DNA from: Escherichia coli
GTDB lineage: Bacteria; Pseudomonadota; Gammaproteobacteria; Enterobacterales; Enterobacteriaceae
Direction: 5' to 3' (one strand)
Length of the DNA stretch: 64,000 nucleotides
Assembly: GCF_003334815.1 (NCBI RefSeq)
Contig: NZ_QOWO01000016.1
Made by a program: the position numbers and the translations under genes. Below, piece after piece: positions 5,309 through 59,609 of this stretch (position 1 is its first letter; each line of letters opens with the position of its first letter). The notes beneath the pieces are model-generated. The model did not search any database. It worked only from the letters and a program-made list of their open reading frames with translations, and was not told where the DNA came from.

Positions 5309-6069
5309 CCGCGTAGCCCCCAAATCGTCAGTGCCATCACCACGCCGACGCAGGTAGCCAGTGTCAGCAGACTGGCGATCGCCCAGCGTGCCAGTCCGGT
5401 ATTGATGTGGCCTTTAAACATATCGGCGACGGCATTAATCAACGGAAAGCCCGGCACCAGCAGCAGAACGCTGGCGGCCATCGCGATGGTGGGGGTATTG
5501 CTGAAAGTAGGGAGTTGCAAAAGCAATCCGGAAATGGTGGTGGCGGCGAAAGCGGTAAGGCAAAAGTTGATCTGTGGATGAAGATGACGTTGTGCCAGCA
5601 GCTGGCGGATATACATCGCGGCCGTACTGGCAAAGAAGGTGATGACGGCACCATCCCAGCCACCTTTATTGAGTTTACAGAAACAGGCGCAGGAAAGGCC
5701 AACCATTAAGGCTACCAGCCATCTTGGGTAACGTAATGGCTGAATTTGGCTAAATCGTTTCTCTACGCCTTTGTAATCCAGCAGATGGTGCTCCGCCAGA
5801 ATCACAATGTGCTGGACTTCAGTCACCACATGCATATTAATGCCGCGATCTTGATTTTTACGTGTCGATGTCAGGCATTGCCCATCTTTAATGGTTGTCA
5901 GCACTATGGCGTTCGAAGAGATAGAACTTTCGACGCTGTCCATCCCCAACGCCCGACCCAGTCGTGAGGAAAGCTCATCAACCAACGCGCTTTCCGCACC
6001 ATGTTGCAAAAGAAATAATCCACACTGGATACAAAGCCGTGTTACGGCTCGCTGTTGCTCAGTTTGCAT
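5299..6069 (-). CDS. yjjP: Inner membrane protein YjjP (ThrE-family)
   Basis: Multi-pass membrane ORF; the likely start is an internal Met of the 277 aa frame; conserved synteny. Confidence 0.65.
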
Positions 6070-6687
6070 AACTCGCCCTTTGTCATAGACGTGCTGCGTA
6101 TTGTTCAGATAATGAGAATCCATTTGTATCATGAAGCACGGTAGTTTTGCGGTAGGTTAAGATCAAAATTGCGCTGATTAATCCTGGTTATCGGGACAAG
6201 CTCGGTGATAAAAAGGGAATTATCTCTCGCCGCAAACAAATTATCACATGAATATTATCACTATAATGAATTTATTCTTTAGCCTTTACGAATCAGGATA
6301 AAAGATAACTGGGCGCGTTTTTTAATTTTTACAAGTTAAAACTATCAGATTTTATTGAACAAATATTGATTGTGTGATTTTGCATTCTGCGGGAAGGGAT
6401 ATCAGTTAATTATAAATTAAATGAATGAGAACTCTGTTTTTCATTAAGTATTTCTAACAACTTAATGTAGATATTTTAAATGTCTCCAGGCTATTTCAAC
6501 AGGTTATCATTTGATGCTAACCTTCTGACACATGCTGTGGAGTTGTTGTGCAGCAGGAGTATGCTGATATGAAAGTGAATGCTAAGGATAATTTATTCGC
6601 TTAATCTATTAATTTGCTGGAAACATTTAAGGAATGAATATCCTGAATAAACCATCATGATTTTTAGACAGTGGATGTGGAGGAAAT

Positions 6688-7413
6688 ATGTTGCCAGGAT
6701 GCTGCAAAAATGGAATTGTTATCAGTAAAATACCTGTTATGCAAGCAGGGTTAAAAGAGGTCATGAGGACTCACTTCCCTGAATATGAAATAATATCCAG
6801 CGCCTCTGCGGAGGACCTTACCTTATTACAATTACGTCGTTCCGGATTAGTCATTGCTGATTTAGCCGGTGAAAGTGAAGATCCACGTTCTGTTTGTGAA
6901 CATTATTATTCTTTAATCTCACAATATCGGGAAATTCACTGGGTTTTCATGGTGTCACGCTCCTGGTATTCCCAGGCAGTAGAACTGCTCATGTGCCCTA
7001 CGGCGACGTTATTGTCTGATGTTGAACCCATTGAGAATCTGGTCAAGACCGTACGTTCCGGCAATACGCACGCAGAGCGTATCAGCGCCATGCTGACCTC
7101 TCCGGCAATGACTGAAACTCATGATTTTAGCTATCGCTCCGTCATTCTCACTCTTTCAGAGCGCAAGGTACTGCGGCTATTAGGTAAAGGATGGGGCATC
7201 AACCAGATAGCTTCATTGCTTAAGAAAAGTAATAAAACTATCAGCGCCCAAAAAAACAGTGCGATGCGTCGACTGGCAATTCACAGCAACGCTGAAATGT
7301 ATGCATGGATAAATAGCGCGCAGGGTGCAAGAGAACTTAACTTGCCTTCTGTTTATGGAGATGCCGCAGAATGGAACACAGCCGAATTAAGAAGAGAAAT
7401 GTCGCACTCATAG
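6688..7413 (+). CDS. yjjQ: LuxR-family transcriptional regulator YjjQ
   Basis: 241 aa with a C-terminal LuxR/FixJ-type HTH; AT-rich upstream region; overlaps bglJ. Confidence 0.75.
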
Positions 7414-8048
7414 AAAAATGCGTCATGAGCAGTATCGGTATTGAGAGTTTATTCAGAAAGTTTGCAGGTAACCCTTATAAGCTCCATACCTATACCAGTC
7501 AGGAGTCATTTCAGGATGCCATGTCGCGGATCTCGTTTGCGGCGGTCATTTTTTCTTTTTCTGCCATGAGAAGTGAACGCAGAGAGGGATTATCTTGCCT
7601 GACTGAACTGGCGATTAAGTTTCCGCGTACCCGACGTTTAGTTATTGCGGATGATGATATTGAAGCTCGGCTGATCGGTTCATTGTCGCCATCACCGCTG
7701 GACGGTGTATTAAGTAAAGCGTCAACGCTGGAGATTTTTCATCAGGAACTCTTTTTGTCATTAAATGGTGTACGTCAGGCGACCGACCGACTGAACAATC
7801 AGTGGTACATTAACCAAAGCCGGACGCTAAGCCCGACGGAGAGAGAAATATTGCGCTTTATGTCGCGTGGCTACTCAATGACACAAATTGCCGAGCAGCT
7901 TAAACGCAATATTAAAACGATCCGTGCACATAAATTTAATGTGATGTCGAAACTGGGCGTCAGTTCTGATGCAGGGTTGTTGGAGGCCGCAGATATTCTG
8001 TTATGTATGCGGCATTGCGAAGCAAGTAATGTGTTGCATCCCTATTAA
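7371..8048 (+). CDS. bglJ: LuxR-family transcriptional activator BglJ
   Basis: 225 aa with a C-terminal LuxR-type HTH ([27 protein letters not shown]); operonic with yjjQ. Confidence 0.75.
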
Positions 8049-12421: not shown

Positions 12422-12496
12422 ATGACGTTGTCTCCTTATTTGCAAGAGGTGGCGAAGCGCCGCACTTTTGCCATTATTTCTCACCCCAATAATTAA
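12422..12496 (+). pseudogene. prfC: Displaced native 5' end of prfC (24 codons) left at attL
   Basis: Encodes [22 protein letters not shown] then NN-stop; the first 22 residues match the RF3 N-terminus as I recall it, and the frame breaks exactly at the att core. Confidence 0.7.
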
Positions 12497-12716: not shown

Positions 12717-13940
12717 ATGGCGCTGTCTGATGCGTGGTTGCGTTCAGTCGTTGGAAAGGAACGTGATAAGGTTTTGGTTAAATCCGATCGTGATGGTCTG
12801 TCTGTCAGAGTATCACCGAAAGGTCGCGTAGTGTTCCAATATCGTTATCAATGGGCAGGGAAAGGTGAGCGTCTTGATATCGGAACTTACCCGGCAACTG
12901 GATTAAAAGAGGCCAGAGAAGAAGTTATCCGTCTCCGTGGTGAACTTGAGTCAAACCGTAATCCACGATTGGTCAAGCAGGCTGAAAAACGAAAAGCTAC
13001 TGAAGCCATGACGGTAGAGTCTGTGATCCGTGCCTGGTATGAAGCATATTGTGTAAAAAATAAAAAAGGTTCTGAACAGATACTCCGCTCGTTTGAGCTG
13101 CACCTGTTCTCTAAAATCGGGAATATCCCTCACGATGCAGCTACATTGCATGATTGGTTAGAAGTCCTGGAGCCTCTTAGCACTAAGACTCCAGCAATAG
13201 CAGACCGATTGCTAATTAACGCAAAGCAGGCCCATGTCTGGGCGTATAAGAGAAAGCTCATTGAAACTCGCCCGCTGTCGGATATCACGGGTAAAGATAT
13301 GGATATCCGTAAAGGTCAGAAGAAACGGTTTCTGACACATGATGAAATTAAAATCCTTTATGCTGCGATCGATGGTTCTCGAATGGTTCCTAAATACCGG
13401 GCCTTCATTAAGCTATTGCTGCATTTTGGCTGCCGTAGTTCAGAGCTAATTACTGCCAGGGTGGACGATTTTGATTTCATTAATAAGGTATGGACTGTAC
13501 CACCAGAACGACATAAGACTGGAGAGATAACAGGCGAACCGCTAAAGAGGCCCATTATTGAACCGGTGGAGGAGCTTATAAAGAACGCTATCTCTATGAA
13601 CAATGGTTCCGATATGCTTTTTACTAAGGAAGGAAGCAGGGAACCCGTTGGTCGAACATCATTGCAGTCGCTGCCTTACAATTTAATGCAGTACGCATGG
13701 AGGCGTTTGGGGCATCAATTCCCTCATTGGTCTCTTCATGATTTGAGGCGAACAGCACGAACAAACTTTTCTGATCTTACTGCTCCTCATATTGCAGAAA
13801 TAATGCTCGGCCATAAACTGCCAGGGGTTTGGCAGGTTTATGACAAGAGCGATTATCTAGAAGAACAGCGTAAAGCATATCAGGCATGGTGGGAGAGAGT
13901 TGAATCGATCGTTACTTGTACTGGCCCAGAATCTACCTGA
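12717..13940 (+). CDS. Tyrosine integrase (P4-type, DUF4102 arm-binding N-domain)
   Basis: 407 aa; ATG with upstream AAGGTGAG; catalytic-domain residues (R...HDLRRT...Y); adjacent to attL. Confidence 0.85.
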   Translation: MALSDAWLRSVVGKERDKVLVKSDRDGLSVRVSPKGRVVFQYRYQWAGKGERLDIGTYPATGLKEAREEVIRLRGELESNRNPRLVKQAEKRKATEAMTVESVIRAWYEAYCVKNKKGSEQILRSFELHLFSKIGNIPHDAATLHDWLEVLEPLSTKTPAIADRLLINAKQAHVWAYKRKLIETRPLSDITGKDMDIRKGQKKRFLTHDEIKILYAAIDGSRMVPKYRAFIKLLLHFGCRSSELITARVDDFDFINKVWTVPPERHKTGEITGEPLKRPIIEPVEELIKNAISMNNGSDMLFTKEGSREPVGRTSLQSLPYNLMQYAWRRLGHQFPHWSLHDLRRTARTNFSDLTAPHIAEIMLGHKLPGVWQVYDKSDYLEEQRKAYQAWWERVESIVTCTGPEST

Positions 13941-14190
13941 CAGCTTGCGTAGCCCTGACAGTCTGTTTTGAGCGAACAGTGGACATTTTCAATGGCATTC
14001 TTGAGTAGGTTACGCTTAGACCAGAAGTAAGAGGTGATAGAATTATCAACAATACATAAAACATAGGGGATCCTTATTGATTTATTGATCTTGACCAACT
14101 TATGTGATGCAGTATGTCTTTAACTTGTATTACTATTATCTTTATCTTGTTGTTTCTAATAAACTTATCTTATTTCAGAAAGGAGTTTTT

Positions 14191-15891
14191 ATGCATTTAG
14201 TCACGAAATCTTATTTCGATGCCTTTTGCAAAGCATTCGCTGCGCCCTATGAGGAGACCAAAAATTTTGAGGCGTTTGTGAACTATTGTGCTTTTTCAAA
14301 ATACTCAGGCGACAAAGTTGAGGTCAGTGATCTTGTGTATGAAGGCCCGGACCCTGGTATTGATGGCGCATTTTTATTTTTAGACGACAGAGCAATTTTT
14401 TCAACTGAAGAACTTCAGGAGATTTTCCAAAACTCACGTCGCGAGTTTCAAGTTTCATTAATATTCACGCAAGCTAAGTCATCGGAGAAGTGGAGCAAAC
14501 AGGAAATAGACTCTTACATTGCGTCAATAAGAGATTATCTTTCACCAGCGCCACAACAACCCCACAGTGAATATCTAGCGGACTTTAAAAAAATGTTCAA
14601 CTTGATATTTGCTAATATCGGCAGAGTCAAAAATGGCCTTCCAGACTTATACGCATATTTTTTTAGTGCTGCACAAAATACAGAGGCCAGAGAAATAAAA
14701 GCTGCATTTGCATCGGGTGAAAAAAGCTTAAAGTCACTCGGGTTTTCACATGAAACATCCTTCATTATGGCTCACAAAGACATGATTCATGAGCTTTGGC
14801 TTGCTGCGGAAGGTCCAATAGAAGCTAAACTTCCTACAATAGGCTATGCTCCATTCCCAGCGGCCCCTAATATTAATAATGCCTATGTAGCTACAGTCAA
14901 AGCTCGTAGTTTTATTGATTCTATACTTAAAGACAAAAATGGAAACCCTCGAAAAAAATTATTCGAAGAAAATGTTAGAGATTTTCTGGGAATTGATGGT
15001 GACGTAAATTCAGAAATTGCAGGAACACTAGATACTGATGGAAAAAAAGCAAGATTTGGTTTAATGAATAATGGAGTGACAATAGTTGCATCAAGCGTGA
15101 GGCCTGCAGGACAAGAAATTTTTATACGAGATTTTCAAATTGTTAATGGATGTCAAACGTCTAATGTTCTTATATCAAAAGACATTCAAGTAGATGAATC
15201 AGTTAGTTTAATGATTAAATTAATTGAAACCGATGAGCCAGCGATCCTTGATGACATTGTACGAGCTACGAATAGACAATCTAAAGTTGAAGATGCACAG
15301 TTCATTTCAACGCTAAAAAAATTAAGGGAATTAGAGCATTATTTTAATGCTAAAGGTGCTATTGAAGGAAATAAAATTTATTTTGAGAGAAGAAAGGGGC
15401 AGTATAGTTCAGAAAGTATAGCTCCAGTACGCATATTTGATATCAGAGAAGTTGCGCGAGCATATGCTGCTATTGTTATGATGAGACCAGATTATTCCAG
15501 TCGTTATCCAAATAGGTTAACTGGTGACTTACTTAATGAGGTTTTCTCTTCCGATGCCCTCGAGGATGATTATTATATATCTTGCTATTGCTTGTATAGG
15601 CTAAAGGCTCTTATCTCAAATAAGAGGTTTGATGGGAAGTATTCAAAATTACGCTGGCATATTCTAACTGCTGCGTCAAAATACTGTGGTAATAATTATA
15701 AGGTTTGGGGGTTCAAAAATAAAAATGAAGCTCTTCATAACTTATTCTCAATGAATGATGGGGAGTGGTTTGAAAAACTTGAGAGTTTAGTAAAAATAGC
15801 TATACCAGATCCGGATATTTCTCGAGACTTACTAAAGTCGCAGCCTTTAACATCAACGATTCTCAAAAGTGTTGATAGCGTACCTAAATAA
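14191..15891 (+). CDS. Large AT-rich cargo protein, possibly AIPR-like abortive-infection family
   Basis: 566 aa from the ATG preceded by AAAGGAG; visibly AT-rich; followed by hairpin GGGAAGCTTATTGCTTCCC. Family assignment is tentative and unverified. Confidence 0.4.
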   Translation: MHLVTKSYFDAFCKAFAAPYEETKNFEAFVNYCAFSKYSGDKVEVSDLVYEGPDPGIDGAFLFLDDRAIFSTEELQEIFQNSRREFQVSLIFTQAKSSEKWSKQEIDSYIASIRDYLSPAPQQPHSEYLADFKKMFNLIFANIGRVKNGLPDLYAYFFSAAQNTEAREIKAAFASGEKSLKSLGFSHETSFIMAHKDMIHELWLAAEGPIEAKLPTIGYAPFPAAPNINNAYVATVKARSFIDSILKDKNGNPRKKLFEENVRDFLGIDGDVNSEIAGTLDTDGKKARFGLMNNGVTIVASSVRPAGQEIFIRDFQIVNGCQTSNVLISKDIQVDESVSLMIKLIETDEPAILDDIVRATNRQSKVEDAQFISTLKKLRELEHYFNAKGAIEGNKIYFERRKGQYSSESIAPVRIFDIREVARAYAAIVMMRPDYSSRYPNRLTGDLLNEVFSSDALEDDYYISCYCLYRLKALISNKRFDGKYSKLRWHILTAASKYCGNNYKVWGFKNKNEALHNLFSMNDGEWFEKLESLVKIAIPDPDISRDLLKSQPLTSTILKSVDSVPK

Positions 15892-16129
15892 AGAGAAGGG
15901 AAGCTTATTGCTTCCCAATAAATTAACACACTTATAGAACCCTTGACTTAAACTTTTTACTGGTTCTCTCAGATATCGATAATTTTATAGGTTGTATCAT
16001 AGCGTGATCGTCTTCAAGAGAAACAACTTAACATTAAATTAGCAACGTTTGCTCTTGGCACAGACTTGACTGTCAGATTAGTTTGGTCTGTGCCATAGAT
16101 ATGTCAGCTCCCATCTGAGATAATACACG

Positions 16130-16324
16130 TTACTCAATAACTCCAGCAAATCTGTATATCTTGCATGATGCCCATTTATTTGGGCAGGATTTAATATCAG
16201 GATCTGGAAAGTCAGGCCTGTATTTCTGGCCAGTTCTCCTGTTTACGCTGTTCCAGCGAAGAACAGTCGATACTGAAACGCCACAGAAGTCGGCGACTTG
16301 TTTAGTTGTCATTAAGTTGTTCAT
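16130..16324 (-). CDS. AlpA-family HTH regulator / excisionase-like protein
   Basis: 64 aa with an MerR/AlpA-like HTH (TTKQVADFCGVSVSTVLRW). Confidence 0.6.
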   Translation of the reverse strand: MNNLMTTKQVADFCGVSVSTVLRWNSVNRRTGQKYRPDFPDPDIKSCPNKWASCKIYRFAGVIE

Positions 16325-51104: not shown

Positions 51105-52042
51105 TTATGTTTGATAAAGAGGTTAACTTAGGAGACAACTCAAACGTAGTAAAAACAGAAGGGAATAACAACACAACAATAATAAATAATTTTGATGAGA
51201 AGTTTATAGGTCACGTTGTAAGATCCATGCTTTATGAAAGTATGCCTTCCTTTCAAGAAGAAGCTAGAAAAAAGATAATTGCGTCAACTGATGAATACAT
51301 TAGAGAGCTAATATCTGAGTTAGTAATTCAAAAAACAGATGCAGATACATTAAACCAAAAACTATCAACGCCTGACGTTCAATACTCTCTTTTTGAATCA
51401 GCTAAATGTTTTGCAAAAAATCCAGAAAGAACAGCAAAATCAACTCTGTTAAATTTAGTTGTAAAAAAAATAAATGAATTGGATGGAGATCATGAAGAGC
51501 TTTCCTCTATCGATCTGGCAATAAACGTCGCTACAAAACTTAGCGTAAAGCAAATAAGGTATATATCTTTAATATACTATATTAAAGATATTGTAAAAAT
51601 ATCACAAGATAGTGCCGGCGCTTATTGCATAATAGATCCTTCAAAAGATACAACAGAAGAAGTTGACGATTTCTTTTTATTCCCAAATGATATAAAAAGG
51701 AACAAGCAGGATGTTTATGATCTTTATATCGATCTATATAACAATCAAATGGATGTTGTATTTAAAGATGAAGAGATTGGCCCAGTTGATTATAGTATGC
51801 TTATAGCATTGGGTTGTATCATTCAACCTGCATTCCCTCAGCGAACATTTGTACAAAATGTAAAGAAAAGAACAGGATTAGATTTAAACGACAGCGAACA
51901 AAAATTAAAGCTATCGACATTCATTGAGAAAATAGAAAAAGCTATAGAGATAGATTCTGTCGATTATATAGTATTAACTACGGTTGGTAGACAAATAGCT
52001 AACGCCTATATATCAACAAGAATGAGATTAGTTAACTTATAA
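51101..52042 (+). CDS. Unknown 313 aa protein (second gene of AT-rich cargo operon; candidate defence/exclusion effector)
   Basis: Translationally coupled to the upstream small gene; N-terminus repeats the GDNSNVV...NNN motif; very AT-rich; no motif I recognise. Confidence 0.5.
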   Translation: MIMFDKEVNLGDNSNVVKTEGNNNTTIINNFDEKFIGHVVRSMLYESMPSFQEEARKKIIASTDEYIRELISELVIQKTDADTLNQKLSTPDVQYSLFESAKCFAKNPERTAKSTLLNLVVKKINELDGDHEELSSIDLAINVATKLSVKQIRYISLIYYIKDIVKISQDSAGAYCIIDPSKDTTEEVDDFFLFPNDIKRNKQDVYDLYIDLYNNQMDVVFKDEEIGPVDYSMLIALGCIIQPAFPQRTFVQNVKKRTGLDLNDSEQKLKLSTFIEKIEKAIEIDSVDYIVLTTVGRQIANAYISTRMRLVNL

Positions 52043-52104
52043 ATATCTCATATTTCTTCATCCAAGGTGGTGGCTTCATCATCCACCGCCTTCTTTTCTG
52101 CTCT

Positions 52105-52215
52105 TAAGAGTAGTGAACAAACCACTCGTCAGCAAACTCCCAAGTATCTTTCAGAGTCTCCTGAACAAAAGCCTTAGCAGAATCCTTATCTGCGGTGTAC
52201 GTAACAGGAAAATCA
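52105..52215 (-). pseudogene. DinI-like 3' fragment
   Basis: Minus-strand translation ...[30 protein letters not shown] matches the DinI C-terminus; no N-terminal part or start. Confidence 0.45.
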
Positions 52216-52445
52216 TCGCTATGGTAGCTTTGACGCTCACCCCCATACCATAAAATATCAAGAGATTACGACTCATTTCCCCATGACTCTTCACCAACCA
52301 ACAGTTCTATCAACATAAGATGTAAACTCATAAACTAAGCAAGATAAAAAAATTAACAGAATTTTGTTGATTTCATGTCTGTGGAGTGTTAACTTAAAAT
52401 GAGACCTGAAGTACTGAAGGTCTTTGACACACTGGAGAAGCAACT

Positions 52446-52805
52446 ATGTTAACGCCGTTTGGTAAGACAGTAAGAAAAATGCGCATAGACTTGGGGCTTA
52501 CGCTTAAAAGCATGGCTGAGGCTATGGGCATGACCTCGTCTTATCTTTCAGCGATCGAAACTGGTAAAAGGGCGGTCACTAAGCCCGTGCTTGATAGCAT
52601 CATTAGCTATTTTAATGCGGATGAAAAACAAAAAGAAAAGCTTATCAGTGCAGCTCGTGACTCTCAGCAGTCAGTAGAGATCAGCTTGTCAGGTAAGAAT
52701 GGCCACGCTCGTGAAGTCGCAATTGCGTTCGCTCGTAGTTTTGATGAATTAAATGAAGAAGACTTCCGTAATTTACGACAGATTTTGAATCGAAAACAGC
52801 AGTAG
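52446..52805 (+). CDS. XRE-family HTH regulator
   Basis: 119 aa with N-terminal HTH (LTLKSMAEAMGMTSSYLSAIETGKR); directly upstream of and coupled to the ImmA-like gene. Confidence 0.65.
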   Translation: MLTPFGKTVRKMRIDLGLTLKSMAEAMGMTSSYLSAIETGKRAVTKPVLDSIISYFNADEKQKEKLISAARDSQQSVEISLSGKNGHAREVAIAFARSFDELNEEDFRNLRQILNRKQQ

Positions 52806-52813
52806 GAGGCGGC

Positions 52814-53335
52814 TTGAGCGGACAAGATTATCGTGTACCTCCGCAGAATCGTGAATCAATACGTTCTATCGTCACATCTCTGCGGAGCGCATTTGGTATT
52901 ACTGGGCTTAAATTCCCTGTAATGGAGGTAATTGAGTTCGCATTGCCTCAGTTGATCCCGGATTTTGAGTTCCACATTGGTGGCATGAAAGAAATGGGAG
53001 AAACGCATGGTCTTACGTACCCACAGGAACATTTATTGATTCTGCGCGAAGACATTTACGAAGGCGCTTTGAATGGGGTAGGGCGAGATAGGATGACTGC
53101 CGCGCATGAATTGGGTCATCTTCTTATGCACAGGAACATCGCATTTGCTCGTTCTGCCCCAGGGGTAAAAATCCGCCCTTTTGAGAGTAGTGAATGGCAA
53201 GCTAAATGTTTTAGTGGTGAGTTATTAGTGCCGGCTATGCATGTCAGTATTTTAAAAGGTATGACGGCTGAGGATGTTGCTAAGGCATGCGGAGTTTCAT
53301 TAGTGGCAGCGCGTTATCAGCTAGACAGAATGTAA
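52814..53335 (+). CDS. ImmA/IrrE-family zinc metallopeptidase
   Basis: 173 aa with HEXXH motif (AAHELGHLLMH); TTG start with AGGAGG 5 nt upstream. Confidence 0.7.
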   Translation: MSGQDYRVPPQNRESIRSIVTSLRSAFGITGLKFPVMEVIEFALPQLIPDFEFHIGGMKEMGETHGLTYPQEHLLILREDIYEGALNGVGRDRMTAAHELGHLLMHRNIAFARSAPGVKIRPFESSEWQAKCFSGELLVPAMHVSILKGMTAEDVAKACGVSLVAARYQLDRM

Positions 53336-53338
53336 AAA

Positions 53339-53374
53339 CCCCTTGCTTGGCGCCAACCAGTGCAAGGGGCTTTA
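53339..53374 (+). terminator. Putative terminator after the HTH-ImmA operon
   Basis: Hairpin CCCCTTGC...GCAAGGGG followed by a short T-run. Confidence 0.4.
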
Positions 53375-53488
53375 GGTGATGAATCCAAGAGGCATCACCA
53401 CCGTGAACAGCTTCGATAGACAGCCTGAAATTAACACCTTCAGGGAAGATGTTCAAGGGAAAAATCTCTCTTGGTAAGGAGGTGTTTT

Positions 53489-53592
53489 ATGAATGGGTTT
53501 GAAATCAATTGCTTCAAAAGCGGCGCCCAAAGGGTTCCGTTGGGTTTTCTGCCGTTACCGCAAGGTGCGTGGGAAATCAAAAAAAGTCCTTG
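53489..53592 (+). CDS. Candidate small ORF (34 aa) with strong SD
   Basis: TAAGGAGGTG 7 nt before ATG; encodes MNGFEINCFKSGAQRVPLGFLPLPQGAWEIKKSP; followed by a strong terminator. Below the ORF-track cutoff; speculative. Confidence 0.25.
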
Positions 53593-53654
53593 ATGCTCAT
53601 GATTACGGGTACGAGGCGTGGGCATTTTTAGTGCGCTGCTAAGGGTTAGTATTT

Positions 53655-53679
53655 AAGGCACCTGCGGGTGCCTTTTTTG
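53655..53679 (+). terminator. Intrinsic terminator
   Basis: AGGCACC-tgcg-GGTGCCT stem followed by TTTTTT. Confidence 0.6.
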
Positions 53680-53880
53680 TATCCTCTGACCCGATTGGTG
53701 TCTTGCTGAGCCTGATAACTACCAATTTTTGTTATTACTATTCTACTATCGCTCAATCATGATTGGCGGGAGTTGAAACCGCAGGCACGTCGTATGCAAG
53801 AACGTGCTGCGGCTGGCTGGTGAACTTCCGATAGTGCGAGTATTGAATGATTTCCAGCCGTTACAGATTTTACGTGCTAA

Positions 53881-54129: not shown

Positions 54130-54348
54130 AAAAATCCCTCTACACTGTGTTTGTATACAGTGTTATTTTTAACTGTATAAATAAACAGTGTCAATGGAAC
54201 AAAGATTGCTGCATGTACAAATGTTCTTTGGCTACAAATACACCTACTGATCATGTTCTGCTATGCTCTGATACCTCCAAAATGTACAATCAGCGGCATG
54301 AATTTTTCTTTGTACATATGATTGTACATAATTAAAGAGACAACAATT

Positions 54349-55935
54349 ATGACAAGCCTTTTGGCCGCAGAGGTAGCGAAAAGAAGAACCTTTGCAATTA
54401 TTTCTCACCCGGACGCCGGTAAAACTACCATCACCGAGAAGGTGCTGCTGTTCGGACAGGCCATTCAGACCGCCGGTACAGTAAAAGGCCGTGGCTCTAA
54501 CCAGCACGCTAAGTCGGACTGGATGGAGATGGAAAAGCAGCGTGGGATCTCCATTACCACGTCTGTGATGCAGTTTCCGTATCACGACTGCCTGGTTAAC
54601 CTGCTCGACACCCCGGGGCACGAAGACTTCTCGGAAGATACCTATCGTACCCTGACGGCGGTGGACTGCTGCCTGATGGTTATCGACGCTGCAAAAGGTG
54701 TTGAAGATCGTACCCGCAAGCTGATGGAAGTTACCCGTCTGCGCGACACGCCGATCCTCACCTTTATGAACAAACTTGACCGTGATATCCGCGACCCGAT
54801 GGAGCTGCTCGATGAAGTTGAGAACGAGCTGAAAATCGGCTGTGCACCGATCACCTGGCCGATTGGCTGCGGCAAGCTGTTTAAAGGCGTTTACCACCTT
54901 TATAAAGATGAAACCTATCTCTATCAGAGCGGTAAAGGCCACACCATTCAGGAAGTCCGCATTGTTAAAGGGCTGAATAACCCGGATCTCGACGCTGCGG
55001 TTGGTGAAGATCTGGCGCAGCAGCTGCGTGATGAACTGGAGCTGGTGAAAGGCGCGTCTAACGAGTTCGACAAAGAATTGTTCCTTGCGGGCGAAATCAC
55101 TCCGGTATTCTTCGGTACTGCGCTGGGTAACTTCGGCGTTGATCATATGCTGGATGGCCTGGTGGAGTGGGCACCTGCGCCGATGCCGCGTCAGACTGAT
55201 ACCCGTACTGTAGAAGCGAGCGAAGACAAATTTACCGGCTTCGTATTTAAAATTCAGGCCAACATGGACCCGAAACACCGTGACCGCGTGGCGTTTATGC
55301 GCGTGGTATCCGGTAAATATGAAAAAGGCATGAAGCTGCGCCAGGTGCGCACTGCGAAAGATGTGGTGATCTCCGACGCGCTGACCTTTATGGCGGGCGA
55401 CCGTTCGCACGTTGAAGAAGCGTATCCGGGCGATATCCTCGGCCTGCATAACCACGGCACTATTCAGATCGGCGACACCTTTACCCAGGGTGAGATGATG
55501 AAGTTCACTGGTATTCCGAACTTCGCGCCGGAACTGTTCCGTCGTATCCGCCTGAAAGATCCGCTGAAGCAAAAACAGCTGCTCAAAGGGCTGGTACAGC
55601 TTTCCGAAGAGGGCGCGGTGCAGGTGTTCCGTCCGATCTCCAACAACGACCTGATCGTTGGTGCAGTTGGTGTGCTGCAGTTTGATGTGGTGGTATCGCG
55701 CCTGAAGAGCGAATACAACGTTGAAGCAGTGTATGAGTCAGTCAACGTTGCCACTGCCCGCTGGGTAGAATGTGCGGACGCGAAGAAATTCGAAGAGTTC
55801 AAGCGTAAGAACGAAAGCCAACTGGCGCTTGATGGCGGCGATAACCTCGCTTACATCGCTACCAGCATGGTAAACCTGCGCCTGGCGCAGGAACGTTATC
55901 CGGACGTTCAGTTCCACCAGACCCGCGAGCATTAA
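54349..55935 (+). CDS. prfC: Peptide chain release factor 3 (with phage-derived 5' end)
   Basis: 529 aa translational GTPase ([13 protein letters not shown]1 motif); first ~17 codons differ from the attL remnant; att core lies within codons 20-24. Confidence 0.9.
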
Positions 55936-58416: not shown

Positions 58417-59195
58417 TTTGCCGTTTTATCGACACCCACTGCCATTTTGATTTCCCGCCGTTTAGTGGCGATGAAGAGGCCAGCCTGCAACGCGCGGCAC
58501 AAGCGGGCGTAGGCAAGATCATTGTTCCGGCGACAGAGGCGGAAAATTTTGCCCGTGTGCAGGCGTTAGCGGAAAAATATCAACCGCTGTATGCCGCATT
58601 GGGCTTGCATCCTGGTATGTTGGAAAAACATAGCGATGTGTCTCTTGATCAGCTACAGCAGGCGCTGGAAAGGCGTCCGGCGAAGGTGGTGGCGGTGGGG
58701 GAGATCGGTCTGGATCTCTTCGGCGACGATCCGCAATTTGAGAGGCAGCAGTGGTTACTCGACGAACAACTGAAACTGGCGAAACGCTACGATCTGCCGG
58801 TGATCCTGCATTCACGGCGCACACACGACAAATTGGCGATGCATCTTAAACGCCACGATTTATCGCGCACTGGCGTGGTTCACGGTTTTTCCGGCAGCCT
58901 GCAACAGGCCGAGCGGTTTGTACAGTTGGGCTACAAAATCGGCGTAGGCGGTACTATCACCTATCCACGCGCCAGTAAAACCCGCGATGTCATCGCAAAA
59001 TTACCGCTGGCATCGTTGTTGCTGGAAACCGACGCGCCGGATATGCCGCTCAACGGCTTTCAGGGGCAGCCTAACCGCCCGGAACAGGCTGCACGGGTGT
59101 TTGACGTGCTTTGCGAGTTGCGCCCGGAACCAGAAGATGAGATTGCCGAAGTGTTGCTTAATAATACGTATGCGGTGTTTAGCGTTCGTGGGTAG
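58413..59195 (+). CDS. yjjV: TatD-family metal-dependent hydrolase YjjV
   Basis: 260 aa with TatD motifs (DTHCH ... GEIGLD). Confidence 0.75.
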   Translation: MICRFIDTHCHFDFPPFSGDEEASLQRAAQAGVGKIIVPATEAENFARVQALAEKYQPLYAALGLHPGMLEKHSDVSLDQLQQALERRPAKVVAVGEIGLDLFGDDPQFERQQWLLDEQLKLAKRYDLPVILHSRRTHDKLAMHLKRHDLSRTGVVHGFSGSLQQAERFVQLGYKIGVGGTITYPRASKTRDVIAKLPLASLLLETDAPDMPLNGFQGQPNRPEQAARVFDVLCELRPEPEDEIAEVLLNNTYAVFSVRG

Positions 59196-59199
59196 TTTA

Positions 59200-59600
59200 C
59201 CCTTCGTAGGCAGCATCCGGCAGTCGGCGCATAATGCCTGATGCGACGCTTGTCGCGTCTTATCATGCCTACAGGTTTGTGCCGAACCGTAGGCCGGATA
59301 AGGCGTTCACGCCGCATCCGGCAGTTGGCGCACAATGCCTGATGCGACGCTTGACGCGTCTTATCATGCCTACAAGTCTGTGCCGAACCGTAGGCCGGAT
59401 AAGGCGTTCAGGCCGCATCCGGCAGTTGGCGCACAATGCCTGATGCGACGCTGACGCGTCTTATCATGCCTACAAGTCTGTGCCGAACCGTAGGCCGGAT
59501 AAGGCGTTCACGCCGCATCCGGCAGTCGGCGCATAATGCCTGATGCGACGCTTGTCGCGTCTTATCATGCCTACAAGTCTGTGCCGAACCGTAGGCCGTA
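59200..59600. repeat. REP/BIME cluster (four tandem palindromic units)
   Basis: Four repeats of GCCTGATGCGACGCTTGxCGCGTCTTATCATGCCTACA...GCCGGATAAGGCGTTCACGCCGCATCCGGCAG. Confidence 0.75.
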
Positions 59601-59609
59601 TCCGGCATG

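What the first reader, a model, noticed from the sequence alone, without database searches (positions are those of the whole stretch)
14191..15891. Large AT-rich cargo gene between integrase and excisionase-like gene: candidate single-gene abortive-infection protein
A 566 aa ORF with clearly lower GC than its neighbours sits in the int-proximal slot, with its own SD and terminator hairpin. The region around FQIVNGCQTSNVL and its size are reminiscent of AIPR-type abortive-infection proteins, but I cannot verify the family. Placement and composition make it a likely defence payload.
Basis: partly seen in the sequence, partly recalled or inferred. Interest (0 to 1): 0.6.

Follow-up and report, generated by a model that had tools for sequence, protein, structure and literature searches.

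The report
Prophage-borne AbiU/AIPR anti-phage gene

Summary
The ORF at 14191-15891 (+) is real. It is 566 aa, has an AGGAG ribosome-binding site and 36.8% GC, against 49.9% for the prophage.

It matches Pfam AIPR (1.6e-43) and the PADLOC AbiU model end to end (3.7e-111). It aligns with a lactococcal 589-aa AbiU-type protein (24% identity, E 6e-28). RefSeq already calls it "AIPR family protein" in 59 of 5426 complete E. coli genomes.

It is the only gene in a 2.1-kb cassette (about 13954-16037) between integrase and excisionase of a 42-kb prophage inserted in prfC. The same integrase occurs in 700 genomes. In ten sampled prophages the slot also held Dsr1, an IS-split Borvo gene, a DUF4365 protein or unannotated genes, so it is a defence hotspot.

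- an N-terminal FokI/MspJI/Mrr-type nuclease domain with D58 and a Q94-A-K96 motif;
- a central ParB/sulfiredoxin/DUF262-like domain carrying the invariant NGCQT motif;
- a helical C-terminal domain with no structural match.

Most likely it is a single-protein, phage-triggered DNA nuclease gated by the ParB-like module. That mechanism is inferred, not shown. Novelty is low.

The parts
12445..12486 (+). attL: duplicated 5' fragment of prfC at the left prophage end
   Evidence: A 42-nt direct repeat with 54369-54410, 81% identical. RefSeq marks a truncated 23-codon pseudo-CDS here.
12717..13940 (+). Tyrosine integrase (407 aa)
   Evidence: PHROG 1 integrase at 4.8e-76 and NCBIfam integrase-domain hits. 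Present at 95-100% identity in 700 of 5426 complete E. coli genomes.
13954..16037 (.). Swappable cargo cassette (about 2.1 kb, 36% GC) whose only gene is the AIPR gene
   Evidence: blastn against four sister prophages loses homology at 13922-13953 on the left and regains it at 16038-16079 on the right.
14181..14185 (+). Shine-Dalgarno AGGAG, 5 nt before the ATG
   Evidence: Read directly from the sequence.
14191..15891 (+). AbiU/AIPR-family gene (566 aa plus stop)
   Evidence: Pfam AIPR 1.6e-43. PADLOC AbiU 3.7e-111. RefSeq WP_061362269.1 'AIPR family protein'.
14248..14790 (+). N-terminal PD-(D/E)xK nuclease-like domain (about residues 20-200). Candidate catalytic residues are E27 (14269-14271), D58 (14362-14364) and Q94-A-K96 (14470-14478).
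14953..15480 (+). Central ParB/sulfiredoxin/DUF262-like domain (about residues 255-430). Invariant motifs are N261-V-R263 (14971-14979), N293-N-G-x-T297 (15067-15081), Q316-IVNGCQTS-324 (15136-15162), T360-N-x-Q363 (15268-15279) and E399-R-R401 (15385-15393).
15481..15888 (+). C-terminal all-helical domain (about residues 431-566), with no structural match; candidate sensor or oligomerisation module
15898..15916 (.). GC-rich hairpin (7-bp stem) 6 nt after the stop codon; the T-tract is on the - strand only
16130..16324 (-). Excisionase (64 aa), convergent with the AIPR gene; it marks the right edge of the slot
   Evidence: PHROG 1553 excisionase at 3.2e-34 and a weak NCBIfam Xis hit. It is not annotated in RefSeq.
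54369..54410 (+). attR inside the 5' end of intact prfC (ORF listed as 54322-55935)

Best explanation
The gene encodes a stand-alone anti-phage protein of the AbiU/AIPR family. It is carried as swappable cargo in the integrase-excisionase slot of a 42-kb prophage inserted in prfC, and it would benefit the lysogen by blocking superinfecting phages.

Shown here:
- family membership;
- a single-gene cassette with no conserved partner gene;
- a slot that holds other defence systems in sister prophages;
- a three-part predicted architecture: an N-terminal FokI/MspJI/Mrr-type PD-(D/E)xK nuclease fold with D58...Q94-A-K96, a central ParB/sulfiredoxin/DUF262-like fold holding nearly all the invariant residues, and a helical C-terminal domain.

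Inferred:
- The ParB-like module, with the C-terminal domain, acts as the sensor or switch. It may bind a nucleoside triphosphate and/or DNA, as ParB, PadC, KorB and the DUF262 domains of GmrSD/BrxU/SspE do.
- On infection it licenses the N-terminal nuclease to cut DNA. FokI-type domains cut as dimers, so this probably requires oligomerisation.
- Early cleavage of phage DNA would explain the delayed phage transcription reported for lactococcal AbiU.
- Whether the host chromosome is also cut (true abortive infection) or only phage DNA (restriction-like immunity) is open.
For: Family. Pfam AIPR 1.6e-43. PADLOC AbiU 3.7e-111 over the full length. The query aligns with the 589-aa lactococcal plasmid protein, which itself scores 1.2e-177 on the AbiU model, at 24% identity over residues 48-476, E 6e-28. 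That alignment keeps D58, QxK, NVRD, NNG, IVNGxQTS and TNxQ.

Single gene. Cassette limits are 13954-16037. Homologues 70-76% identical sit in unrelated contexts: after the tail and endolysin genes of a P. aeruginosa prophage, on an Aeromonas mobile element beside a restriction-modification pair, and as solitary insertions in Burkholderia and Kosakonia.

Foreign origin. The gene is 36.8% GC in E. coli. In P. aeruginosa it is 42.7% GC beside 66.9% GC phage genes.

Hotspot. The integrase is in 700 genomes and the AIPR gene in 59. Other cargo found in the slot includes Dsr1, Borvo BovA split by IS600 and a DUF4365 protein.

The QxK motif is catalytic in the Mrr/MspJI family: the conserved motif is (Q/E)AK, and D334A and Q355A abolish MspJI activity (PMC2938202).

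Literature.
- AbiUi alone confers resistance, delays phage transcription, and its AlphaFold2 model resembles FokI (PMC13064643).
- AbiU1/AIPR contains a ParB-superfamily domain (PMC3632139).
- A Vibrio AbiU was chosen for experimental validation, and a phage anti-AbiU protein, Surt, was validated against it (bioRxiv 10.1101/2024.06.14.598830).
- AbiU is found in P2 phage and P4 satellite hotspots.
Against: - No phenotype exists for this protein or its 70%-identity subfamily.
- Lactococcal AbiU gives only a 10- to 100-fold drop in plaquing.
- The arginines of the ParB GERR and DUF262 DGQQR nucleotide-binding motifs are not conserved; the motif here is NGCQT. Nucleotide binding is therefore an analogy.
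- The loops carrying N261/R263 and Q363 have pLDDT below 50.
- K96 is replaced in 10 of 60 homologues.
- The D58-Q94 spacing is 35 residues, against 20 in MspJI.
- No promoter was identified, and an AT-rich gene could be silenced in the lysogen.
Confidence: 0.6

Rival explanations
1. It is a restriction-like (Type IV-style) enzyme, not an abortive-infection protein. The ParB/DUF262-like module would recognise a feature of incoming DNA, such as a modification or a structure. The nuclease would then cut only that DNA and the cell would survive. This would be GmrSD/BrxU/SspE with the domain order reversed and a PD-(D/E)xK nuclease in place of the HNH nuclease.
For: Fold similarity to BrxU/GmrSD, SspE and DndI DUF262 domains. 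The best nuclease-domain matches include the modification-dependent enzymes MspJI and AspBHI and the Mrr-like protein AF1548. The family is historically linked to restriction-modification loci, and the Aeromonas homologue sits beside a restriction-modification pair. Delayed phage transcription fits an early attack on DNA.
Against: The family was named from an abortive-infection phenotype. No recognisable modification-reading domain (SRA, PUA or similar) is present. The DGQQR motif is not conserved. Nothing here separates cell survival from cell death.
Confidence: 0.3
2. It is a non-defence ParB-like or DndB-like DNA-binding regulator or maintenance factor of the prophage, with a degenerate nuclease domain.
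For: DndB, a regulator, shares the AIPR-type domain. The invariant residues are concentrated in the ParB-like domain.
Against: The nuclease motif residues are conserved: D58 in 60 of 60, E27 in 59, Q94 in 59 and K96 in 50. The gene is dispensable for the prophage family, being absent from about 640 of 700 carriers of the same integrase. It is replaced there by defence genes. It also occurs alone outside prophages. There are no dnd genes nearby and no NCBIfam DndB hit.
Confidence: 0.05
3. It is an orphan component of a multi-gene system (MZA, or a restriction-modification-linked AIPR) and is inert without its partners.
For: Weak similarity to MzaE: PADLOC 6.5e-09 and NCBIfam 8.8e-10.
Against: The MzaE score is 37.7 bits against a curated cut-off of 1050, and it covers only residues 255-406. 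The AbiU model fits the full length. The cassette holds one gene. Five independent genomic contexts share no partner gene. AbiUi alone suffices in Lactococcus.
Confidence: 0.05

Closest known systems
Lactococcal AbiU (AbiU1/AbiUi; Dai et al. 2001)
   Same: Same family by profile: both proteins match the PADLOC AbiU model over its full length. They have similar length (566 against 589 aa) and the same order of motifs (D...QxK, NVRD, NNG, IVNGxQTS, TNxQ). Both are carried as single effector genes on mobile DNA.
   Different: Identity is only 24%. There is no AbiU2-like downstream gene here. The carrier is a proteobacterial prophage rather than a lactococcal plasmid. E399 is D in the lactococcal protein. 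No phenotype is known for this subfamily.
GmrSD / BrxU / SspE (DUF262 NTPase plus nuclease defence enzymes)
   Different: The domain order is reversed. The nuclease is PD-(D/E)xK rather than DUF1524/HNH. NGCQT replaces DGQQR. There is no Pfam DUF262 hit. NTPase activity is untested.
FokI / MspJI / Mrr-type cleavage domains
   Different: There is no sequence-level hit to Mrr_cat or any restriction-enzyme Pfam family. The D-to-QxK spacing is longer (35 against 20 residues). The domain is fused to a ParB-like module rather than a sequence-reading or SRA domain.
MzaE of the MZA system and DndB
   Same: They share the AIPR/ParB-like core.
   Different: The score is far below the MzaE cut-off. No mzaABCD or dnd genes are present. 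DndB lacks the N-terminal nuclease and is a regulator.

Membership tests
AIPR (Pfam PF10592) | Significant match to the family profile | tested here: met
   E 1.6e-43, residues 258-520 against model positions 1-294 of 308. All 60 diverse homologues also match.
AbiU (PADLOC/DefenseFinder single-gene system) | Full-length match to the AbiU profile | tested here: met
   E 3.7e-111, residues 2-562 against model positions 3-535 of 537.
AbiU | Homology to the lactococcal AbiU1-type protein | tested here: met
   BLASTP E 6e-28, 24% identity over residues 48-476, to a 589-aa L. cremoris plasmid protein that scores 1.2e-177 on the AbiU model. That this protein is AbiU1 itself rests on its length and its 341-aa downstream gene, which I recall from Dai 2001. 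That paper could not be opened.
AbiU | A single gene is sufficient, with no obligatory partner | tested here: inconclusive
   Genomic evidence only: a one-gene cassette and no shared neighbour across five contexts. There is no functional test.
AbiU | Confers phage resistance with an abortive-infection phenotype or delayed phage transcription | not testable with these tools
   Requires phage challenge. Reported only for Lactococcus and for a Vibrio homologue in a preprint.
PD-(D/E)xK nuclease (Mrr/MspJI/FokI type) | Core fold plus the D...(D/E/Q)xK motif | tested here: met
ParB/sulfiredoxin superfamily (including DUF262) | ParB-N fold | tested here: met
ParB/DUF262 | GERR or DGQQR nucleotide-binding motif and NTP binding or hydrolysis | tested here: not met
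   The equivalent position reads N319-G-C-Q-T323 and has no arginine. No Pfam ParBc or DUF262 hit. Nucleotide binding itself cannot be tested here.
MZA system (MzaE) | Score above the NCBIfam cut-off and neighbouring mzaABCD genes | tested here: not met
   37.7 bits against a cut-off of 1050. The cassette holds no other gene.
HEPN RNase (attributed to AIPR proteins in PMC3506569) | Rx4-6H motif | tested here: not met
   No Rx4-6H motif anywhere in the protein. The N-terminal fold is PD-(D/E)xK.

The most novel reading that the evidence does not exclude
This unusually conserved proteobacterial AIPR subfamily (70-76% identity from E. coli to Pseudomonas, Burkholderia and Methylobacterium) might be a nucleotide-gated ParB-type switch fused to an Mrr-like DNase. 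That would be a reverse-order, PD-(D/E)xK version of GmrSD/SspE. It would restrict phage DNA directly rather than kill the host, which would give the first mechanism for the 25-year-old AbiU family in a tractable E. coli system. Separately, the integrase-excisionase slot of the prfC prophages holds several cassettes with no hit in PADLOC or NCBIfam. These could be new defence genes.
Probability: 0.3. Interest if true: 0.5.

Novelty: already known. Interest (0 to 1): 0.2.

Why it matters
The finding adds little. Standard annotation (RefSeq) and defence finders (PADLOC) already label this exact protein AIPR/AbiU, and prophage-borne AbiU next to an integrase has been described in Salmonella and in P2-like phages.

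The residual value is practical. The AbiU mechanism is still unsolved, and this E. coli copy, with clear candidate catalytic residues (D58, Q94/K96) and switch residues (R263, N319/Q322, E399/R400), is a convenient test case.

The more useful by-product is the slot itself. The integrase is in 700 of 5426 complete genomes, and ten sampled prophages held at least nine different cassettes, three of them known defence systems. The slot is therefore a ready source of unannotated candidate defence genes.

Tried and rejected
- phmmer and a profile HMM against PDB sequences gave zero hits at E up to 10.
- A megablast of the locus against the phage collection gave no match. Only protein-level searches found distant phage homologues: Fels-2 at 30% and mycobacteriophages at 26%.
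- The HEPN idea from PMC3506569 was rejected: no Rx4-6H motif and a PD-(D/E)xK fold.
- MzaE and DndB membership were rejected.
- The longer GTG start at 14104 was rejected because homologues begin at MHLVT and the ribosome-binding site precedes 14191.
- The promoter scan found no + strand site between the integrase and the gene, and my manual reading found only weak candidates.
- I first assumed the window was strain L3Cip3. blastn showed that the rest of the prophage is mosaic relative to that strain, so its annotation was used only for the int-AIPR region.
- I recalled AspBHI as having a 'QAK' motif. The paper says DX20EAK. QAK/Q355 applies to MspJI.
- Dai et al. 2001 (PMC93294) is not held in the library.
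- The alternative cargo proteins from strains RM8995-C1, NU14, O103:H2 strain 129, A26 and STEC435 gave no convincing PADLOC hit; the best was E 0.0055 to a 2TM effector model for the NU14 protein. The first three also gave no NCBIfam hit.

Full report
**Observation**

The window holds an ORF at 14104..15891 on the + strand. The ATG at 14191 gives 566 aa and is preceded by AAAGGAG, five bases upstream. Homologues from many genera begin with the same MHLVT, and RefSeq annotates exactly this CDS.

The gene is 36.8% GC (GC3 27.9%). The integrase is 45.4%, the whole prophage 49.9% and the flanking chromosome 50.5-53.1%.

Six bases after the stop codon lies a 7-bp GC-rich hairpin at 15898-15916 (dG -13.3 kcal/mol, z -5.5). 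Its T-rich tail is on the minus strand only. It is more plausibly the terminator of the convergent xis/early operon, or an insulator, than a classical terminator for this gene. No consensus promoter was found in the 250 bp upstream.

**Setting**

The left part of the window is the E. coli fhuF-rsmC-holD-rimI-yjjG region. A 42-nt repeat at 12445-12486 and 54369-54410, which is the 5' end of prfC, brackets a prophage of about 42 kb.

The prophage opens with a tyrosine integrase at 12717-13940 (+), then the AIPR gene, then a convergent excisionase at 16130-16324 (-), which matches PHROG 1553 at 3.2e-34. Early genes of the DUF551/yfdS/yfdR/yfdQ/yfdP type follow.

The AIPR locus is 100% identical to strain L3Cip3. 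The rest of the prophage is mosaic relative to that strain.

**Family**

- Pfam AIPR matches residues 258-520 at 1.6e-43.
- The PADLOC AbiU model matches residues 2-562 against positions 3-535 of 537, at 3.7e-111.
- PHROG 1841, an Abi-type moron family, matches at 1.7e-70.
- MzaE is only a weak, partial match: 37.7 bits against a curated cut-off of 1050.
- A 589-aa L. cremoris plasmid protein is followed by a 341-aa gene, as I recall for abiU1/abiU2. It scores 1.2e-177 on the AbiU model and aligns with the window protein at 24% identity over residues 48-476, E 6e-28. Every key motif is preserved in that alignment.
- The family is large. There are 3556 clusters at 50% identity with E up to 1e-3 and 475 with E up to 1e-30. 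Most align from residue 1 to about 495, so the N-terminal domain belongs to the family architecture.
- The close subfamily is 70-76% identical across Enterobacter, Pseudomonas, Burkholderia, Cupriavidus, Methylobacterium and Aeromonas.

**Single-gene cargo in a hotspot**

blastn against sister prophages shows homology ending at 13922-13953 and resuming at 16038-16079. The cassette is therefore about 2.1 kb and holds one gene.

The integrase occurs at 95-100% identity in 700 of 5426 complete E. coli genomes. The AIPR gene occurs in 59.

In nine sampled sister prophages the slot held the following cargo:

| Strain | Cargo in the slot |
|---|---|
| O121 GTVSS-020 | Borvo BovA, split by IS600 |
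| ETEC6334 | DUF4365 protein, with weak restriction-enzyme-like PADLOC hits |
| O145 RM8995-C1 | two small hypothetical proteins |
| NU14 and MS 200-1 | one 331-aa hypothetical protein |
| O103:H2 strain 129 | 81-aa plus 436-aa hypothetical proteins |
| A26 | 342-aa hypothetical protein |
| STEC435 | 239-aa hypothetical protein |

The hypothetical proteins have no convincing PADLOC hit. Those from RM8995-C1, NU14 and O103:H2 strain 129 were also searched against NCBIfam and gave nothing. Most of the sampled cassettes are AT-rich at 32-36% GC; the Dsr1 cassette is 51%.

Close homologues elsewhere share no neighbour with the E. coli copy:
- In P. aeruginosa the gene follows the tail and endolysin genes at a prophage end. 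It is 42.7% GC there, beside 66.9% GC phage genes.
- In Aeromonas it sits on a mobile element with a relaxase, an integrase fragment and a restriction-modification pair.
- In Burkholderia and Kosakonia it is a solitary insertion.

Distant full-length homologues lie in Salmonella phage Fels-2, between the gpA/DinI region and the portal gene (gpQ), and in mycobacteriophages.

**Architecture**

AlphaFold2 on a 22-sequence alignment gave mean pLDDT 82.5 and pTM 0.42, so the domains are confident but their relative orientation is not. Foldseek found nothing.

A separate model of residues 225-566 (pLDDT 86.3, pTM 0.70) lost all the nuclease hits. Its top four hits were PadC (6.3), a ParB nuclease (5.9), sulfiredoxin (5.7) and BrxU/GmrSD (5.3), with KorB, SspE and DndI below them. 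The nuclease fold therefore lies in residues 1-224 and the ParB-like fold in the centre. The helical C-terminal domain has no match.

In 60 homologues of 23-73% identity, the invariant residues are D58, N261, R263, N273, N293-N294-G295, T297, N319-G320, Q322, N361, Q363 and E399-R400. E27 and Q94 are kept in 59 of 60 and K96 in 50 of 60.

D58...Q94-A-K96 matches the (D/E)...(D/E/Q)xK motif of the Mrr/MspJI family. There the conserved motif is (Q/E)AK, and D334A and Q355A abolish MspJI activity (PMC2938202).

The protein contains no HEPN Rx4-6H motif.

**Mechanism**

Shown: family membership, one-gene mobility, residence in a defence hotspot, and two recognisable folds with conserved motifs.

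Taken from the literature:
- AbiUi alone protects Lactococcus modestly, delays phage transcription, and its model resembles FokI (PMC13064643).
- AIPR contains a ParB-superfamily domain and is often linked to restriction-modification systems (PMC3632139).
- A Vibrio AbiU was chosen for experimental validation, and a phage inhibitor of it, Surt, was validated.

Inferred: the ParB-like module, with the C-terminal domain, senses infection through a nucleotide and/or DNA and licenses the N-terminal nuclease to cut DNA. The nuclease probably acts as a dimer or higher oligomer, as FokI and MspJI do.

The main rival is a restriction-like mode in which the cell survives, rather than abortive infection. 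Nothing here separates the two. The readings as a regulator or as an orphan component are poorly supported.

Weak points:
- The GERR/DGQQR arginines are missing.
- The loops around R263 and Q363 have low confidence.
- K96 is not universal.
- No promoter was identified.
- No experimental data exist for this subfamily.

**Comparison and novelty**

The protein is a member of AbiU/AIPR. It works like, but is not a member of, the GmrSD/BrxU/SspE family: the domain order is reversed, the nuclease is different, and there is no DUF262 profile hit. It is neither MzaE nor DndB.

RefSeq and PADLOC already label it. Prophage-borne AbiU beside integrases has been reported in Salmonella (PMC9958689) and in P2/P4 hotspots. 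I rate it already known, with low interest.

The more useful lead is the variable integrase-excisionase slot of the prfC prophages, with its several unannotated cassettes.

Noticed in passing
window 13954-16037, and the equivalent slot in loci L004-L007 and L020-L024: The integrase-excisionase slot of this prfC-integrating prophage family (700 of 5426 complete E. coli genomes) is a cargo hotspot. Ten sampled prophages held at least nine different cassettes. These included AbiU, Dsr1, IS600-split Borvo, a DUF4365 protein and five unannotated cassettes with no convincing PADLOC hit; the three checked against NCBIfam also gave nothing. The unannotated ones are candidate new defence genes.
   Followed up: partly
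window about 50278-53774 (attR-proximal end of the prophage): A second variable module is absent from strain L3Cip3. It holds an LPO_1073/Vpar_1526-family protein (51101-52042), a CapH-like HTH protein (52446-52805) and a CapP-like ImmA/IrrE peptidase (52814-53335). A serine recombinase lies just upstream (49901-50491). Direct repeats at 50489-50590/53774-53875 and 52111-52218/53882-53989 lie at or within its ends. It resembles a CapH/CapP-type regulator pair with no obvious regulated effector.
   Followed up: partly
window 16130-16324 (-): The 64-aa excisionase (PHROG 1553, 3.2e-34) is not annotated in the RefSeq records inspected. The stretch between the AIPR gene and the DUF551 gene is left empty there.
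   Followed up: yes
window 15898-15916: The hairpin after the AIPR stop codon has its U-tract on the minus strand. It lies inside the swappable cassette, so the cargo seems to bring its own insulator against the convergent leftward early transcript.
   Followed up: partly
L002 (NZ_CP135245.1, 'plasmid pOHT76-1_1', 373 kb): This RefSeq 'plasmid' carries chromosomal core genes (fhuF, three tRNA-Leu genes, rsmC, holD, rimI, yjjG) and this prophage. It is probably a chromosome fragment labelled as a plasmid.
   Followed up: no
window 22450-22572: Six 15-nt-spaced iteron-like repeats (TCAAAATCTGAC-type) lie in the early-right region, probably the prophage replication origin.
   Followed up: no
window 59150-59606: Four tandem copies of a unit of about 101 nt (70-94% identical) lie downstream of prfC/osmY, near the yjjU-yjjV region. 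A gap in the blastn alignment to L3Cip3 (59296/59512) falls here, so copy number may vary between strains.
   Followed up: no
L008-L011 (P. aeruginosa), gene at 6001-7701: A 73%-identical AIPR gene sits at the very end of a P. aeruginosa prophage, after the tail and endolysin genes. It is 42.7% GC in a 67% GC context, which points to recent inter-class transfer of this one-gene module from a low-GC source.
   Followed up: partly
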